Both the position numbers and the translations under genes were made by a program. The notes below the pieces were generated by a model. It saw only the letters and a program-made list of their open reading frames with translations. It ran no database searches and had not been told where the DNA came from. From assembly GCA_017396515.1 (NCBI GenBank), contig JAFQLV010000013.1, positions 1,010 to 65,009 of the forward strand: DNA of 64,000 nucleotides, read 5' to 3'. Each line of letters starts with the position of its first letter. Within the stretch, counting starts at the first letter, position 1. Of this stretch, positions 8,678-60,458 are shown one piece after another. The DNA comes from Clostridia bacterium. GTDB lineage: Bacteria > Bacillota > Clostridia > Oscillospirales > Acutalibacteraceae.

Positions 8678-8920
8678 ATGAAGCACACATATAAAACAAA
8701 GGGTGTTTGTGCCCAGCTCATAACCTTTGACCTTGAAGACGGCATAGTTTCAAACATCAAATTTCTCGGTGGCTGCTCAGGCAACACTCAGGGCGTGGCA
8801 ACACTTGCTGATGGCATGAAGGCTGAGGAGCTCGTTGCAAAGCTTTCGGGCATCCGTTGCGGCTTTAAGGGCACTTCCTGCCCCGACCAGCTTGCTAAGG
8901 CCGTTGCGAGCAAGATGTAA
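8678..8920 (+). CDS. TSCPD-domain small protein (TIGR03905-like)
   Basis: 80 aa with GGCSGNTQG and the literal TSCPD motif near the C-terminus. GGGAGG RBS and a consensus-like promoter lie upstream. Confidence 0.8.
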   Translation: MKHTYKTKGVCAQLITFDLEDGIVSNIKFLGGCSGNTQGVATLADGMKAEELVAKLSGIRCGFKGTSCPDQLAKAVASKM

Positions 8921-8922
8921 GC

Positions 8923-9083
8923 AATTATGAATGAGGAATTATGAATTATGAATTATGAATTGCGACTGAAATTCTGCTAAAGGATAATAGCTACACGCAG
9001 AGATAATGAAGCGTCAGCTTCATTTCATGACCATCAGGTCATTTCATGCACTCAGTGCATTTCATGCCGTCAGGCATTTCATC
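8923..9083 (+). repeat. Structured intergenic element E1: AATTATG array, GCGAC junction, CGCAGAG box and four tandem hairpins
   Basis: Array AATTATG AATGAGG AATTATG x3 AATT at 8923-8961. GCGACTGAAATTCTGCTAAAGGATAA is homologous to the left arm of copies A/B/C. Hairpins span 9006-9077. Confidence 0.8.
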
Positions 9084-9093
9084 AAAACAGCAA

Positions 9094-9123
9094 CCCGACA
9101 GAGCAATCTGCCGGGTTTTGTTG
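9094..9123. terminator. Bidirectional terminator between the TSCPD gene/E1 and the 444-aa secreted protein gene
   Basis: CCCGACAG-agcaat-CTGCCGGG with TTTTGTTG downstream and an A-rich tract upstream. Confidence 0.65.
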
Positions 9124-9133
9124 TATGTATTTA

Positions 9134-10426
9134 TCAATAGTGTGCCGCACCGCAAGCGCAGACTGCATTTTTCTTAAAGAGCTTCTGGAAGAAGAGAATA
9201 ATTTTGAAGAAGAAGGCTTTTATACCGCCTGCATGACAGTTGCAGGAGCAAGGCTCGGCAGGCTTTTCAAAAGTATAACCACAGCCGTAGTCGCATTTGT
9301 AGTCGCCGTTGGTGTCTTTGTGAGGCAGCTTATCAACACGGTCTGCCTCGTAAGCATCACCGCACTCGCAGGTGTAAACTGTGTAGCCGTATGTTGTGCA
9401 GGTGGGTGCATAGACCTTTGTCTTATAGTCGTGCTTGTGATTTAAATTATTGATATCATTAATTTTTAATGCAGGGCGAACACCGAACTCAAGTCCATCT
9501 ACCCAAAAACAGTTCGTATAGCCGGAATCTTCAATATACCAATTTTTAGCTGTATCAATACCCGGAGTACGAAGATGCCAAGGAGATCTTTGGTCATAGC
9601 CGTAAGCCGGACCGGCATCATAGACTCCCTGACACTCAGCATAATCGCTGCTTTGTGCAATTAGATTTACATGACTAACGAAACCAAAATCGCTGTTTTG
9701 TGTATCTTCATAAGACAGCAGAAATATTTTGTCTTTTGTTTCATTTCTGCTTTCTGCAGGTTCTCCAGAACATACAACATCGTTATTAAGGGTAGTAATG
9801 GAGATTTCTTTCTTTTCATTATCCGTAAAAGCCGTATTATAGAAATCATCATTGAGCCATTTTCTTATTGAGCTTGTTTCGTAATCATTTGCATAGTTTT
9901 CATAATCAGGGTCGTTGAAACAGATGTATGCACCGTCATCAGCTGTTTTAAAATAAGATGTGTTGCTGAAAGCCTGTGTGTCAATAATCGTTTCACACAA
10001 CACAAAACCTGTTTCAGGGTCAAGAACACGCCACTCAATAGGCTCAAACTTAAACCAATAGGTCATGTTGACAAAATAACCGTTATCATCTTGTCTTGTA
10101 AAACCACCATTTCTGTATTCTATAAATTTAACACCGCGATATTTATTGCCGCCATATTCTACATCGATATATCTCATCCAAGACATTTGCATTACCGCCC
10201 CATCGAGATCCCAATAATAGTCATAGCTTGTCCAGTTTTCCCACGCAGGTGCAAGTGCACCAAGCTCAGCTATCAAGGCAAAATCTTTGACCTCACTCTG
10301 CGGATATGAGCCGAACTGAATAATGTCGCCCACCTTATATTTACCACCCTCAGCATAAGCCATAGGCACTGTGCAGGCTATCATAATAACCGCTAACACC
10401 AGACTTAGTAACTTTTTTGATTTCAT
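9134..10426 (-). CDS. Secreted protein (DUF6273-like N-terminal region) with Cys-pair module and Cys-flanked hydrophobic C-terminal tail
   Basis: Signal peptide MKSKKLLSLVLAVIMIACTVPMAYA after an AGGAGG RBS. GDIIQFGSYPQ and IEWRVLD motifs are present. The tail is CSCNCHAGGIKAFFFKIILFFQKLFKKNAVCACGAAHY. Confidence 0.75.
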   Translation of the reverse strand: MKSKKLLSLVLAVIMIACTVPMAYAEGGKYKVGDIIQFGSYPQSEVKDFALIAELGALAPAWENWTSYDYYWDLDGAVMQMSWMRYIDVEYGGNKYRGVKFIEYRNGGFTRQDDNGYFVNMTYWFKFEPIEWRVLDPETGFVLCETIIDTQAFSNTSYFKTADDGAYICFNDPDYENYANDYETSSIRKWLNDDFYNTAFTDNEKKEISITTLNNDVVCSGEPAESRNETKDKIFLLSYEDTQNSDFGFVSHVNLIAQSSDYAECQGVYDAGPAYGYDQRSPWHLRTPGIDTAKNWYIEDSGYTNCFWVDGLEFGVRPALKINDINNLNHKHDYKTKVYAPTCTTYGYTVYTCECGDAYEADRVDKLPHKDTNGDYKCDYGCGYTFEKPAEPCSCNCHAGGIKAFFFKIILFFQKLFKKNAVCACGAAHY

Positions 10427-10450
10427 AAGAAAACCTCCTAATTTCTTTTG

Positions 10451-10493
10451 TGTAACAAAATGTAACATAATTATTGTAACAAACTGTTACAAT
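10451..10493. promoter_or_regulatory. TGTAACA repeat cluster (candidate XRE operator) in a divergent intergenic region
   Basis: TGTAACA at 10451, 10461 and 10475, with inverted TGTTACA at 10485. The last two form the palindrome ATTGTAACA-aac-TGTTACAAT (10473-10493). Confidence 0.5.
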
Positions 10494-10513
10494 AAAGTCA
10501 AGGGGTGTTTGTT

Positions 10514-10717
10514 ATGAAAGGGCTGAAAATTGTAAGAAAATCACGAAATCTGAACCAACAAAAGGTTGCTATGGATTTAAACATTTCACGTGAAGCTCTT
10601 TCTCACTATGAAAACGGCAAACGGGAACCAAGCCTCGATATGCTCAATAAATTATCAAAATATTTTAATGTTTCAATCGACTACCTCATTAACGGTGAAG
10701 AATTTAAAAAGCAGTAA
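10514..10717 (+). CDS. XRE-family helix-turn-helix transcriptional regulator
   Basis: The sequence QQKVAMDLNISREALSHYENGKREPSLDMLNKLSKYFNVSIDYL is a classic Cro/C1 HTH. Confidence 0.8.
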   Translation: MKGLKIVRKSRNLNQQKVAMDLNISREALSHYENGKREPSLDMLNKLSKYFNVSIDYLINGEEFKKQ

Positions 10718-10757: not shown

Positions 10758-10877
10758 AATTATTCTTGACGGACCGTCGGGGACGCCGGTCCCTACGCAT
10801 TTACTCTGCGGAAAGACACTCCCCTTCTCGGCAGAGTACGACGCAATTCATAATTCATAATTCATACTTCATAATTA
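10758..10877 (-). repeat. Structured intergenic element E2: AATTATG-type array containing the mgtC stop, GCGTCG junction and CCGCAGAG box
   Basis: The plus strand reads ...CTCTGCGGAAAGAC...GCAGAGTACGACGC AATTCAT x3 ACTTCAT AATTA (array 10845-10877). Confidence 0.75.
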
Positions 10878-11763: not shown

Positions 11764-11800
11764 AATTAATTCATAATTCATAATTCCTAATTCATAATTA
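11764..11800 (-). repeat. Solitary AATTCAT/AATTATG heptamer array upstream of zapA
   Basis: AATT AATTCAT AATTCAT AATTCCT AATTCAT AATTA. It is near-identical to the array at 46418-46452. Confidence 0.8.
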
Positions 11801-14853: not shown

Positions 14854-15133
14854 AAAATGCAAAATTCAAAATTCAAAATGCAAAATTGCGGTCGCGGGCA
14901 CATTTCTGCCGATAAATAATCTTCTCCCGCAAAGTGAGTTGAGATAAAATACCAACTCACAAGATTATAAAAAATAAGGCAGGTCACTACCGATTTGGAA
15001 GTGACCTGCCGTTTGTTTTAAGATTGATAAGATTTGCCGTTTCTGAGCTTTATCTACGCGGAAAGAGTCTTAAGGTTAGTCAGTGGTAAAATCGCGACCA
15101 CAATTTTGCATTTTGAATTTTGCATTTTGCATT
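14854..15133 (+). repeat. Structured intergenic element, full copy A (AAAATGC arrays)
   Basis: Left array at 14854-14886 and TGCGGTCGCG at 14887-14896. CCCGCAAAG box, then terminator hairpin at 14978-15019 and GCGGAAAGAG box. CGCGACCACA at 15093-15102, followed by the inverted array to 15133. Confidence 0.9.
14978..15019 (+). terminator. Rho-independent terminator hairpin inside element A
   Basis: GGCAGGTCAC-13 nt-GTGACCTGCC followed by GTTTGTTTT. It lies downstream of dCMP deaminase. Confidence 0.7.
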
Positions 15134-16417: not shown

Positions 16418-17269
16418 GTGATTACAATAAAAAAGCTTATTTGTGTTTTAGCCTTTCTGTCGGTACTGCTTACATTCTGTGCTTGCACAAAGGAAGACTC
16501 CCCGCATATAACCGCTGCGCCTGAGGAAACAACCACAACAAAATCTCTTACGGTGAGAGTGACCTTCCCCGAGGGTCTGACCCTTGTGCAGATTGCAGAA
16601 AAATTAGAGGAAAGCGAAGTCTGCAATGCCTCACGCTTTATAGCGTTGACAAACGATATGACTTATATTCAGACACTCCCCTACTCTTTTATAAATGAAA
16701 TTGAAAACAGACAGGAAAGGGCATTTATCCTTGAGGGATATATCTTCCCCGACACCTATGAGTTTTATCGCGGTGAAAGCGAAGAAAAAGCTCTCTCCCG
16801 CTTTCTTGACAACACAGAACGAAAGCTGACGGCAGAGTACAGACAAAGAGCCGCAGAGCTTGGCTACAGCCTTGATGAAATTATCACTCTTGCCTCAATT
16901 GTGCAGGAGGAGTCTTACACCAATGACAGTGTTAAAAATGTCTCAAGCGTCCTTCACAACAGGCTTCGCAGCCCCTCTTTTCCGCGCCTTCAGTGTGATG
17001 TTACCATTCACTATGTCAACGATTATATCACCGACTCGAAATTTCTCAGTGCCACTGACGGCTATGCCGAAAAATACAACACCTACAAGTGTGAGGGCTT
17101 GCCCGTCGGTGCAATTTGCAACCCGGGCCTCGCTTCAATTGAGGCTGCCCTTTACCCTGCCGAGACGGATTATTACTACTTTGTAACAGACAGCGATTGG
17201 GATTATTATTATGCCTCGACCTATGCAGAGCACAAGAAAAACTGCAATGCAGTGGGACTTGCGGGTTAA
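16418..17269 (+). CDS. mltG: Endolytic murein transglycosylase MltG (YceG-like)
   Basis: N-terminal TM segment, EGYIFPDTYEF, LASIVQEE and YNTY..GLP.G.I.NPG motifs. The start codon is uncertain (GTG at 16418). Confidence 0.85.
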   Translation: MITIKKLICVLAFLSVLLTFCACTKEDSPHITAAPEETTTTKSLTVRVTFPEGLTLVQIAEKLEESEVCNASRFIALTNDMTYIQTLPYSFINEIENRQERAFILEGYIFPDTYEFYRGESEEKALSRFLDNTERKLTAEYRQRAAELGYSLDEIITLASIVQEESYTNDSVKNVSSVLHNRLRSPSFPRLQCDVTIHYVNDYITDSKFLSATDGYAEKYNTYKCEGLPVGAICNPGLASIEAALYPAETDYYYFVTDSDWDYYYASTYAEHKKNCNAVGLAG

Positions 17270-17299
17270 TTATGAATTATGAATGAGGAATTATGAATG
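17268..17299 (+). repeat. AATTATG heptamer array forming the mltG/GNAT intercistronic junction
   Basis: AATTATG AATTATG AATGAGG AATTATG AATG overlaps the TAA stop at 17267-17269, GAGGAA at 17285-17290 and the ATG at 17297. Confidence 0.8.
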
Positions 17300-29805: not shown

Positions 29806-30139
29806 AATGCAAAATGCTAAAAAAATGCAAAATGCAAAATTGTGGTCGCGGGGAATTTTCTGCTGATAAGTAGTTTTCTCCCGCAAAAGGAGTGGGGACG
29901 AGATGGTAAGTCTGTAGATTATAATCCTCATCCGTCACTGCGTGACACCTTCCCCTTAACTCAAGGGGAAGGTATAAATAAGGCAGGTCACTACAAGTTT
30001 TCAGTAGTGACCTGCCGTTTGTTTTAAGATTGATGAGATTTGCCTCCTCTGAGCTTCATCTATGCGGAAAGAGGCTTAAGGTTAGTGGGCGGTGAAATCG
30101 CGACCACAATTTTGCATTTTGCATTTAGCATTTTGCATT
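29806..30139 (+). repeat. Structured intergenic element, full copy B (AAAATGC arrays, extra internal hairpins)
   Basis: TGTGGTCGCG at 29841-29850 and CGCGACCACA at 30099-30108. Terminator hairpin at 29982-30025. A 71-nt block (30011-30081) is identical to the reverse complement of 56692-56762. Confidence 0.9.
29982..30025 (+). terminator. Rho-independent terminator hairpin inside element B
   Basis: GGCAGGTCACTAC-9 nt-GTAGTGACCTGCC followed by GTTTGTTTT. Confidence 0.75.
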
Positions 30140-56633: not shown

Positions 56634-56910
56634 AATGCAAAATGCTAAATGCAAAATGCAAAATTACGGTCGCGACTCCACCACCCGCTGACCTTAAGCC
56701 TCTTTCCGCATAGATGAAGCTCAGAGGAGGCAAATCTCATCAATCTTAAAACAAACGGCAGGTCACTTCCAATTCGGTAGCGACCTGCTGATGCATTATA
56801 ATCTACAGAGTGGGAATTTCATCCCCACTCCCTTTGCGGGAGAGGATTGCTTATCAGTAGAAATGTGCCCGCGACCACAATTTTGCATTTTGCATTTAGC
56901 ATTCTGCATT
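56634..56910 (-). repeat. Structured intergenic element, full copy C (inverted relative to A and B)
   Basis: The reverse complement aligns end to end with A/B. GGTCGCG at 56668-56674, CGCGACCACA at 56870-56879, hairpin at 56757-56788. Confidence 0.9.
56748..56788 (-). terminator. Terminator hairpin inside element C (slightly degenerate stem)
   Basis: The minus strand reads GCAGGTCGCTACCGAATTGGAAGTGACCTGCC followed by GTTTGTTTT. It lies downstream of ridA. Confidence 0.6.
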
Positions 56911-56913
56911 TAA

Positions 56914-60199: not shown

Positions 60200-60458
60200 G
60201 AGTGAGGAGTGAGGAGTTAGGAGTTAGTAGTTAGGAGTTAGGAGTTAGGAGTTGTGGTCGCGGGTTAACTCTATACTAACCTTAAACTCGTTGCCGCAAG
60301 CACAAAACTCGCAAGCGGAAAATTCCGTCGATCATAAAATGTGCTTTTAAATTGCATTATTTTGGCGGAATATAGGGTTCGTTTAAATAAGTTTAAAACG
60401 GATATAATCGGAGCGAAGCGACCCTTAACTCCTAACTCCTAACTCCAAACTCCTAACT
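60200..60458 (-). repeat. Variant element D with GGAGTTA/TAACTCC arrays between ilvC and ilvD
   Basis: GAGTGAG x2 and GAGTTAG-type x5 at 60200-60252. TGTGGTCGCGGG at 60253-60264. The CTAACCTTAA segment is shared with A/B/C. GCGACCC then TTAACTCC TAACTCC TAACTCC AAACTCC TAACT to 60458. Confidence 0.8.

What the first reader, a model, noticed from the sequence alone, without database searches (positions are those of the whole stretch)
9006..9077. Four tandem mini-hairpins with a conserved frame and perfectly compensatory stem changes
The region contains four hairpins. They are ATGAAGC-gtca-GCTTCAT (9006-9023), ATGACC-atca-GGTCAT (9027-9042), ATGCAC-tca-GTGCAT (9046-9060) and ATGCC-gtca-GGCAT (9064-9077). 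Each is separated from the next by TTC. The closing ATG...CAT and the TCA loop core are constant. The inner stem triplets differ (AGC, ACC, CAC, CC) but always have the exact complement, and unit length decreases 18, 16, 15, 14 nt. This is a covariation signature for selected structure, either RNA hairpins or tandem palindromic protein-binding sites. It sits inside element E1, just upstream of a bidirectional terminator.
Basis: seen in the sequence. Interest (0 to 1): 0.65.

Follow-up and report, generated by a model that had tools for sequence, protein, structure and literature searches.

The report
Gut-1-type tandem mini-hairpin repeat array
The four small hairpins are real and far beyond chance, and they are one copy of a dispersed repeat of gut Clostridia related to the orphan Rfam motif "Gut-1", whose function is still unknown.

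Summary
Positions 9006-9077 hold four perfect mini-hairpins, each framed by ATG...CAT and followed by TTC. A bidirectional terminator follows at 9092-9117.

The array is not a local curiosity. Arrays with the same C-ATTTCAT-G linker and freely varying, self-complementary inner stems occur in Acutalibacteraceae and other Clostridia genomes. They also occur several times per genome in rumen metagenomes, beside unrelated housekeeping genes. Across 40 units from 11 arrays, the two variable inner pairs are both Watson-Crick in 37 units. Shuffled partners give 5.5.

Rfam's Gut-1 model (RF01706: three hairpins joined by GUGAAAU) is the best match to the window copy. It scores only 26 bits against a threshold of 50. 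Relatives score up to 54.5 bits, and canonical members 62-78 bits.

The linker is one base away from AATTCAT, the heptamer that forms plain tandem arrays at the ends of repeat elements throughout this window. So the array is best read as a heptamer array with short fold-out palindromes between the heptamers. That points to a REP/BIME-like selfish intergenic repeat that is read as a single strand.

The functional strand, transcription and the mobilising enzyme remain unresolved. A double-stranded operator array and a small ORF are rejected.

The parts
9006..9023 (.). Hairpin 1, ATGAAGC-gtca-GCTTCAT (8 bp if 9005/9024 are included). This is the conserved first unit of the subfamily.
   Evidence: and folds. 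The same stem appears with other loops (tct, aca, gtca, aac) in L008, L009, L117 and an X3 contig.
9027..9042 (.). Hairpin 2, ATGACC-atca-GGTCAT.
   Evidence: The same unit with loop gtca occurs in L011. An orthologous strain changes only the loop (9033 A>G).
9046..9060 (.). Hairpin 3, ATGCAC-tca-GTGCAT.
9064..9077 (.). Hairpin 4, ATGCC-gtca-GGCAT.
   Evidence: An identical unit occurs in L117. An orthologous strain changes only the loop (9069 G>A).
9021..9083 (+). Constant linkers C-ATTTCAT-G at 9021-9029, 9040-9048 and 9058-9066, plus a terminal CATTTCATC at 9075-9083. The heptamer ATTTCAT is one base from the window's AATTCAT heptamer. On the minus strand the linker reads CAUGAAAUG, which resembles the Gut-1 linker GUGAAAU.
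9092..9117 (.). Bidirectional intrinsic terminator shared by the convergent TSCPD and DUF6273 genes.
   Evidence: Inverted repeat with 11-nt arms, terminator scan, folds.
8923..8961 (+). Plain tandem heptamer array (AATTATG) x5.6 that starts right after the TSCPD stop codon.
   Evidence: Its depth is 50-60 times that of the flanks in metagenomes.
8962..9003 (+). End module (TGAATTGC-N30-CGCAGAGA). Together with the heptamer array it forms an 81-nt unit that is absent in a related strain. Its middle matches the Clostridiales-3 consensus.
   Evidence: Joint 8913>9004 in X11, alignment with the inverted copies at 10790-10844 and 46372-46417, Rfam match of 21 bits.
8678..8920 (+). TSCPD-domain gene. 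The array lies in its 3' untranslated region if plus-strand transcription runs on to the terminator.
9134..10468 (-). Convergent gene for a secreted DUF6273 protein. On this strand the array lies beyond the terminator.

Best explanation
What it is. The array is one copy of a dispersed, structured intergenic repeat of gut and rumen Clostridia. It belongs to the same kind as the orphan Rfam motif Gut-1. The repeat is an array of a family heptamer. Here the heptamer is ATTTCAT, one base from AATTCAT, which forms the plain tandem arrays at the ends of the MITE-like elements (small non-autonomous repeat elements) of this window. In the hairpin version, successive heptamers are separated by short spacers whose sequence is free but which are self-complementary.

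How it most likely works. Only the heptamers and the ability of each spacer to fold back are preserved. So the array is read in single-stranded form, where each spacer folds out as a mini-hairpin and the heptamers are presented in a regular series. I think it behaves like REP/BIME clusters. It is a selfish repeat that settles beside intrinsic terminators and gene ends, and its hairpin-plus-linker units are the cis signal for its spread or maintenance, probably as single-stranded DNA. When it is transcribed it acts passively. Here that would be as the 3' UTR of the TSCPD gene on the plus strand, ahead of the shared terminator, where it would add stem-loops at the 3' end of the mRNA.

Shown: the structure, the covariation, the multi-copy dispersal, the kinship to Gut-1, the link to the heptamers, and separability from the neighbouring 81-nt unit.

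Inferred: reading as a single strand, the likeness to REP, and any effect on the mRNA.

Unknown: the enzyme or protein that reads it, and the strand.
For: Structure and chance.

Relatives with the same linker but different perfect stems:
- L008 and L009, both Acutalibacteraceae.
- L011, a Clostridia MAG from buffalo cecum.
- L033, L034, L041 and L117.
- Three further contigs per run in rumen metagenomes that match only 9005-9089.

Covariation: 40 units from 11 arrays. Inner pairs 4 and 5 are both Watson-Crick in 37 of 40 units, against 5.5 with shuffled partners (maximum 15 in 10,000 shuffles). All four pair types occur. As a negative control, the other roughly 110 loci with the same linker boxes are plain satellites with identical, non-palindromic spacers.

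Orthologous diverged strain: the only two substitutions inside the array fall in loops.

Kinship to Gut-1: the window copy scores 26 bits. L011 scores 54.5 (above the threshold of 50), L034 48.8, and canonical members 62-78 bits.

Heptamer link:
- L034 uses ATTTCAT, AATTCAT and ATGAATT linkers in one locus.
- In the authors' flanked Gut-1 alignment, a hairpin array sits at one end of an element whose other end is a plain AUUUUCA heptamer array. That element has the same UUGCGGUCG...UCUGC...GAUAA module as this window's elements.
- The element ends are 60-400 times deeper than the flanks in metagenomes.

Unrelated neighbours: TrmFO, FolD, L9, AraA, TrmK and tRNA genes.

Position next to terminators.
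Against: No mobilising enzyme was identified and no target-site duplication was seen. No clean presence/absence polymorphism of the hairpin array itself was found; only the neighbouring 81-nt unit shows one.

In this family the ATG/CAT ends of the linker pair inside the stems, so only TTC stays single-stranded. That weakens the picture of presented heptamers.

Rfam and its authors file Gut-1 as an RNA gene on the strength of covariation.

Some features look like transcription signals: a unidirectional terminator after the array in L009 and a promoter-like site reading through an array in L011.

The RNA data are uninformative.

The window copy fails the Gut-1 threshold.
Confidence: 0.5

Rival explanations
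1. The array is a dedicated structured RNA, as Rfam files Gut-1. It would be either a small RNA or a UTR element whose repeated linkers, presented between hairpins, bind several copies of an RNA-binding protein, working as a sponge or scaffold in the manner of CsrB/RsmZ. In the window this would be the plus-strand 3' UTR of TSCPD, or a minus-strand read-through or independent transcript in the Gut-1 orientation.
For: Covariation of the kind expected for RNA. The authors of Gut-1 rated it an RNA. Canonical Gut-1 consensus loops are C(UUCG)G, an RNA-stabilising loop. L009 has a unidirectional terminator after the array on the ATTTCAT strand, and L011 has a promoter-like site that reads outward through an array. 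In the window there is no terminator between the TSCPD stop codon and the array. Heptamer arrays are very deep in a metatranscriptome.
Against: There is no consistent position or orientation relative to genes: arrays lie in a 3' UTR, in a 5' UTR, upstream of a promoter, or after tRNA genes. No conserved promoter was found. Arrays usually come as inverted pairs, like transposon ends. The same positions can be taken by plain, unstructured heptamer arrays. G.T versus A.C counts are 3 to 2, so they give no strand signal. No RNA contig crosses the array.
Confidence: 0.22
2. The array has no function and is not under selection. It would be a tandem duplication of an 18-nt palindromic unit, kept palindromic by a mutational mechanism: intrastrand template switching, in which one arm of a quasi-palindrome is corrected against the other. 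Units would be gained and lost by slippage between the identical 9-nt linkers.
For: Stems are perfect while loops vary, which is what arm-to-arm correction predicts. Unit number and order differ between copies, and some units recur in different arrays. For example, ATGCC-gtca-GGCAT occurs in the window and in L117, and ATGACC-ntca-GGTCAT in the window and in L011.
Against: This does not explain the dispersal to many unrelated loci and genomes, the conservation of the linker across families, the conserved first hairpin stem that carries five different loops, the pairing of arrays in inverted orientation, or the position next to terminators.
Confidence: 0.13
3. The palindromes are tandem operators on duplex DNA for a dimeric regulator, for example the XRE-type HTH protein encoded 1.4 kb away (10514-10717).
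For: Each unit is a palindrome with conserved outer half-sites ATG/CAT. An HTH_3 gene lies in the same inter-array segment.
Against: Half-site spacing varies from 13 to 19 nt within and between arrays. The inner bases are free but complementary, which duplex recognition does not require. Arrays occur beside TrmFO, FolD, L9, AraA and tRNA genes with no regulator nearby. The HTH gene has its own likely operator, TGTAACA repeats at 10450-10495.
Confidence: 0.03
4. The array is a small protein-coding ORF (9006-9140, 44 aa) that starts at the ATG of hairpin 1.
For: The ORF exists.
Against: Unit lengths of 21/19/18/17 nt are not multiples of three. Relatives change unit number and length, so no reading frame is kept. 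The ORF runs through the terminator, and there is no convincing ribosome-binding site.
Confidence: 0.01

Closest known systems
Gut-1 RNA motif (Rfam RF01706; Weinberg et al. 2010, PMC2864571)
   Same: Tandem short hairpins joined by a conserved heptamer linker ((G/A)UGAAAU). Stems are supported by covariation. It is found in gut Clostridia-type sequence, lies next to terminators, and has no known function. It is the best Rfam match to the window copy, and relatives with the window's linker reach the threshold.
   Different: The window copy scores 26 bits against a threshold of 50. It has four hairpins rather than three, shorter stems, and the linker AUGAAAU flanked by C and G so that the linker ends pair into the stems. 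Its loops are NTCA rather than UUCG. It comes from a ruminant rather than a human gut. It is a solo array, whereas canonical members come as an inverted pair of arrays around a centre of about 35 nt.
REP / BIME clusters of Enterobacteria and Pseudomonas (with RAYT transposases)
   Same: Short extragenic palindromes with a conserved flanking motif. They are clustered with conserved linkers, present in many copies, sit after stop codons and near terminators, form hairpins as a single strand, and can stabilise upstream mRNA (established knowledge; PMC2817692 and PMC3116915 were listed).
   Different: REPs in BIMEs alternate in orientation, whereas these units are all direct. REP stems are conserved in sequence, whereas here they are free. 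No RAYT-like gene was found or searched for genome-wide. The taxon is different.
Tandem heptanucleotide arrays of Cyanobacteria and Beggiatoaceae (STRR, TAACTGA repeats; PMC4679880)
   Same: Intergenic tandem heptamers of 2-8 copies at gene boundaries. There are several heptamer families per genome, and the function is unknown.
   Different: Those arrays are plain, with no palindromic spacers between heptamers. They are not described as inverted pairs that flank elements. The phyla are different.
MITEs and modular repeats of Firmicutes (BOX, RUP) and Neisseria (Correia elements)
   Same: Non-autonomous, abundant intergenic elements with inverted ends and a variable number of internal modules. 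They often carry terminators or promoters (my own knowledge).
   Different: The ends here are tandem heptamer or hairpin arrays rather than simple inverted repeats. No target-site duplication and no cognate transposase were identified.
Clostridiales-3 RNA motif (Rfam RF02942)
   Same: The module next to the array (8969-8991, GAAAUUCUGCUAAAGGAUAAUA) aligns to a conserved stretch of this model.
   Different: It scores 21 bits against a threshold of 103. The rest of the model is not matched, and the MITE-like element at 29806-30139 does not match it at all.

Membership tests
Gut-1 RNA motif (RF01706) | Three or more tandem hairpins joined by a conserved (G)UGAAAU linker | tested here: met
   The window has four hairpins. 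On the minus strand the linker reads CAUGAAAUG, which differs from GUGAAAU at one position.
Gut-1 RNA motif (RF01706) | Covariance-model score at or above Rfam's gathering threshold (50 bits) | tested here: not met
   The window copy scores 26 bits with E = 0.0036 in a local search. Nothing is found at the gathering threshold or in the whole-window E-value search. Relatives with the same linker score 54.5 (L011), 48.8 (L034) and 29-41 for others.
Gut-1 RNA motif (RF01706) | Stems supported by compensatory changes | tested here: met
   In 37 of 40 units both variable pairs are Watson-Crick, against 5.5 expected with shuffled partners.
Gut-1 RNA motif (RF01706) | Expressed as a non-coding RNA | tested here: inconclusive
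   Only assembled metatranscriptome contigs were available. None crosses 8968-9160, and they carry no strand information.
Gut-1 RNA motif (RF01706) | Canonical locus layout: left array, short centre, inverted right array | tested here: not met
   Canonical members show this layout. The window has a single array, with a plain heptamer array plus module on its other side, and that unit is absent in a related strain.
REP/BIME | Palindromic units in alternating orientation with a conserved head motif | tested here: not met
   All four units are in direct orientation.
REP/BIME | Cognate RAYT (Y1 transposase) in the genome | not tested
   Only 64 kb of the genome is available, and no search for a RAYT-like gene was made.
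MITE | Terminal inverted repeats, target-site duplication and presence/absence polymorphism | tested here: inconclusive
   The neighbouring elements have inverted ends and are extremely abundant. An 81-nt unit next to the array is a clean indel. No duplication of the target site was seen, and no empty site was found for the hairpin array itself.
Intrinsic terminators in tandem | G+C-rich stem followed by a run of T | tested here: not met
   The terminator scan calls only 9092-9117. The four hairpins are followed by TTC, not by a T run.
Clostridiales-3 RNA (RF02942) | Score at or above the gathering threshold (103.4 bits) | tested here: not met
   It scores 21 bits, and only the stretch GAAAUxxUGCxxAAGGAUAAUA aligns well.

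The most novel reading that the evidence does not exclude
Plain heptamer arrays and Gut-1-type hairpin arrays are two forms of one cis-acting end signal. That signal belongs to a so far undescribed and extremely abundant class of mobile intergenic elements in gut and rumen Clostridia. A protein would read the signal on single-stranded nucleic acid, one heptamer at a time, with the palindromic spacers folding out of the way. The elements settle preferentially beside intrinsic terminators. On this reading, Gut-1, and probably part of Clostridiales-3, would be pieces of mobile DNA rather than RNA genes.
Probability: 0.25. Interest if true: 0.8.

Novelty: new variant of a known kind. Interest (0 to 1): 0.55.

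Why it matters
Gut-1 has been in Rfam since 2010 as an RNA of unknown function, known then only from human gut metagenomes. This window places a close variant in named genome bins (Acutalibacteraceae and other Clostridia, from the ruminant gut). It also shows that the linker is the same kind of heptamer that forms tandem arrays at the ends of very abundant MITE-like elements, and it gives concrete loci where the array sits in a defined transcription context.

If the link holds, an orphan RNA motif becomes a testable piece of a mobile-element system. The heptamer arrays that fill many intergenic regions of these genomes would then have an explanation. If the link does not hold, the array remains a good candidate for a multi-hairpin RNA that binds a protein.

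Tried and rejected
1. Rfam at gathering thresholds over the whole window found nothing. The whole-window E-value mode gave only one unrelated weak hit. The Gut-1 and Clostridiales-3 leads appeared only in a local search.
2. A viral-contig scan with three CATTTCATG boxes gave one hit, a coding repeat in a giant-virus bin. I rejected it.
3. In the genome scan, L005-L007 are chance matches and L010 is a 21-nt Bacteroidales satellite.
4. In the metagenome scan, about 110 of 120 loci are ordinary satellites. I used them as a negative control.
5. Long-range pairing between the left heptamers and the array linkers is not favoured in the predicted fold; the local hairpins win.
6. I read TTGCGA-17-GATAAT at 8960-8988 as a possible promoter. 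The spacing is not conserved in related elements (19-22 nt), so I did not rely on it.
7. I tried to call the strand from G.T versus A.C mismatches. The count is 3 to 2, which is uninformative.
8. For RNA evidence, two metatranscriptome runs are held only as contigs, and neither has coverage across an array.
9. A MAFFT alignment of whole arrays anchors on the linkers but misplaces gaps inside the stems. I therefore counted covariation per unit with my own script, not with the count of structure pairs.
10. Literature searches for heptamer-flanked elements in Clostridia, for later work on Gut-1 and for Clostridiales-3 found nothing beyond Weinberg 2010. The supplement of Weinberg 2017 is not held.
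11. Canonical Gut-1 arrays occur in IMG/VR contigs. They lie next to tRNA genes and a partial tRNA 3' end, so they are most simply host flank of integrated elements and not phage parts.

Full report
OBSERVATION. There are four perfect mini-hairpins: ATGAAGC-gtca-GCTTCAT, ATGACC-atca-GGTCAT, ATGCAC-tca-GTGCAT and ATGCC-gtca-GGCAT. Each is followed by TTC. The constant part is the 9-mer C-ATTTCAT-G, which occurs in the window only here, at 9021, 9040 and 9058. A degenerate fifth copy, CATTTCATC, lies at 9075-9083. Tandem Repeats Finder sees a period of about 18. A detector of my own, which looks for runs of perfect hairpins, finds only this array in the 64 kb. In simulated windows, runs of four occur 0.025 times per window even without requiring a common frame. 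Both strands are predicted to fold into the four hairpins plus the terminator, with z near -6.7.

SETTING. The array lies between two convergent genes. One is a TSCPD-domain gene (8678-8920, plus strand). The other encodes a secreted DUF6273 protein (9134-10468, minus strand). The array sits just before their shared bidirectional terminator at 9092-9117. Between the TSCPD stop codon and the array lie a tandem heptamer array, (AATTATG) x5.6 at 8923-8961, and a 42-nt module at 8962-9003.

The window is full of such heptamer arrays at gene boundaries. Four heptamer families are present. Many arrays come as inverted pairs that flank MITE-like elements of 250-330 bp, which have TTGYGGTCGCG inverted ends and a central terminator. 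In rumen metagenomes the ends of these elements are 60-400 times deeper than the flanking genes, and their interiors vary.

THE ARRAY IS A DISPERSED REPEAT. In gut metagenomes that hold this locus, the stretch 9005-9089 on its own also matches three other long contigs per run at about 90% identity, with different flanks and different terminators after it.

- A pattern scan of one genome per species found true relatives in two Acutalibacteraceae bins (L008, L009) and in a Clostridia bin from buffalo cecum (L011, which has two arrays in inverted orientation).
- A metagenome scan added L033, L034, L041 and L117. The roughly 110 other loci with the same boxes are ordinary satellites whose spacers are identical and not palindromic, which makes them a natural control.
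- The neighbouring genes are unrelated housekeeping genes: TrmFO, FolD, ribosomal protein L9, AraA, TrmK and tRNA genes.

COVARIATION. I took 40 units from 11 arrays. Thirty are perfect hairpins, and most of the other ten depart by a single mismatch, wobble pair or bulge. At the two inner positions that vary, all four Watson-Crick pair types occur, and 37 of 40 units have both pairs intact. With partners shuffled among units the mean is 5.5, and the maximum in 10,000 shuffles is 15.

The first hairpin keeps its stem ATGAAGC/GCTTCAT in five copies, with loops GTCA, TCT, ACA, GTCA and AAC. In an orthologous strain about 5% diverged, the only two substitutions inside the array are in loops (9033 and 9069). 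So the fold-back form is what is kept. The TCA loop and the falling unit length are peculiar to this copy.

WHAT IS KNOWN. In a local Rfam search, Gut-1 (RF01706) is the best match to the array, on the minus strand, at 26 bits against a threshold of 50. The Gut-1 consensus is three hairpins joined by GUGAAAU, and the window's linker on that strand is CAUGAAAUG.

- Relatives with the window's linker score 54.5 bits (L011, above threshold), 48.8 bits (L034) and 29-41 bits.
- Canonical members found in IMG/VR contigs score 62-78 bits.
- The paper that described Gut-1 says only that it is found in human gut sequences, that covariation supports it, and that it is probably a non-coding RNA. No function is given. 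I found no later work.

THE HEPTAMER LINK. The linker ATTTCAT differs by one base from AATTCAT, the inverted form of the window's AATTATG heptamer.

- In L034 one locus uses ATTTCAT, AATTCAT and ATGAATT as linkers between hairpins.
- In the authors' own flanked alignment, a Gut-1 array is followed by UUGCGGUCG...UCUGC...GAUAAG, an internal hairpin, a terminator and then a plain AUUUUCA heptamer array. That is the architecture of the MITE-like elements in this window, with the hairpin array in the place of one terminal heptamer array.
- Canonical Gut-1 loci are a left array, a centre of about 35 nt, and a right array in inverted orientation.

I therefore read the hairpin arrays as heptamer arrays in which short palindromes separate the heptamers.

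THE ARRAY IS SEPARABLE FROM ITS NEIGHBOUR. A contig from a related strain joins the end of the TSCPD gene to position 9004. It lacks exactly the 81 nt of heptamer array plus module and keeps the hairpin array and the terminator. The same module occurs in inverted orientation at 10790-10844 and at 46372-46417. Its middle matches a conserved stretch of the Rfam model Clostridiales-3, at only 21 bits.

MECHANISM. Free but self-complementary spacers between constant heptamers make sense only if the array is read as a single strand. On duplex DNA the heptamer spacing would vary from 17 to 21 bp, and the inner bases would not need to be complementary. Several features fit a selfish, REP/BIME-like repeat better than a dedicated regulator:

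- dispersal beside unrelated genes;
- inverted pairing of arrays;
- interchangeability with plain heptamer arrays;
- a habit of lying next to terminators and gene ends.

In this window the plus strand would carry the array in the TSCPD 3' UTR ahead of the terminator. On the minus strand the array lies beyond the terminator of the DUF6273 gene.

Hints on strand conflict. Rfam's orientation is the minus strand. In L009, however, a unidirectional terminator follows the array on the ATTTCAT strand, and in L011 a promoter-like site reads outward through an array in that same orientation. Wobble counts do not decide. The RNA data available are assembled contigs without coverage of any array. I give the REP-like reading 0.5, a dedicated RNA function 0.22 and a purely mutational origin 0.13. 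A duplex operator array and a small ORF are close to excluded.

VERDICT. This is a real, non-random, structured repeat. It is a variant of a known but uncharacterised kind (Gut-1), seen here in a ruminant-gut Clostridia genome. It adds a new and testable connection to the tandem heptamer arrays and MITE-like elements that crowd this genome.

Noticed in passing
window 8923-8961, 10845-10876, 11767-11799, 17268-17298, 46418-46449; 14854-14886/15103-15133; 29806-29840/30109-30139; 56634-56664/56880-56911; 60200-60253/60426-60458; 46337-46368: Tandem heptamer arrays of 3.6-8.4 copies from four families (AATTATG, AAAATGC, GAGTTAG, AGTGCAG) sit directly at gene boundaries. They often overlap the stop codon, and many come as inverted pairs.
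   Followed up: partly
window 14854-15133, 29806-30139, 56634-56911, 60200-60458: MITE-like elements of 250-330 bp are flanked by inverted heptamer arrays. They have TTGYGGTCGCG...CGCGACCRCAA inverted ends and a central terminator hairpin. In rumen metagenomes their ends are 60-400 times deeper than the flanks, and minimal forms with a 19-nt core exist. They have no Rfam match.
   Followed up: partly
window 8923-9003 (inverted copies of the module at 10790-10844 and 46372-46417): An 81-nt unit (heptamer array plus a module TGAATTGC-N30-CGCAGAGA) is a clean insertion/deletion difference between strains. Its middle matches the Rfam Clostridiales-3 consensus, at 21 bits only.
   Followed up: partly
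window 46337-46449: A chimeric mini-element of about 110 bp has an AGTGCAG heptamer array on one side and an AATTCAT array on the other, with one end module between them.
   Followed up: no
window 10450-10495: Three direct TGTAACA repeats and one inverted TGTTACA lie between the divergent DUF6273 gene and the XRE-type HTH gene (10514-10717). This is probably the regulator's operator.
   Followed up: no
L150 9715-9757 and L171 about 470-500: A partial tRNA 3' end that neither ARAGORN nor Rfam calls is followed by a terminator and a canonical Gut-1 element. It looks like the scar of an element integrated into a tRNA gene, which would explain why Gut-1 arrays turn up in 'viral' contigs.
   Followed up: partly
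L010 6384-6981: A Bacteroidales chromosome carries a long 21-nt satellite (GACATTTCAYRTCGTTCAGAA, more than 25 copies) that shares the CATTTCATG box by chance.
   Followed up: no
window 9134-9400 (minus strand): The DUF6273 protein has a signal peptide and a cysteine-rich C-terminal part. Paralogous copies in metagenomes have a heptamer array directly against the stop codon, with no hairpin array or terminator between them (joint 8963>9136).
   Followed up: no
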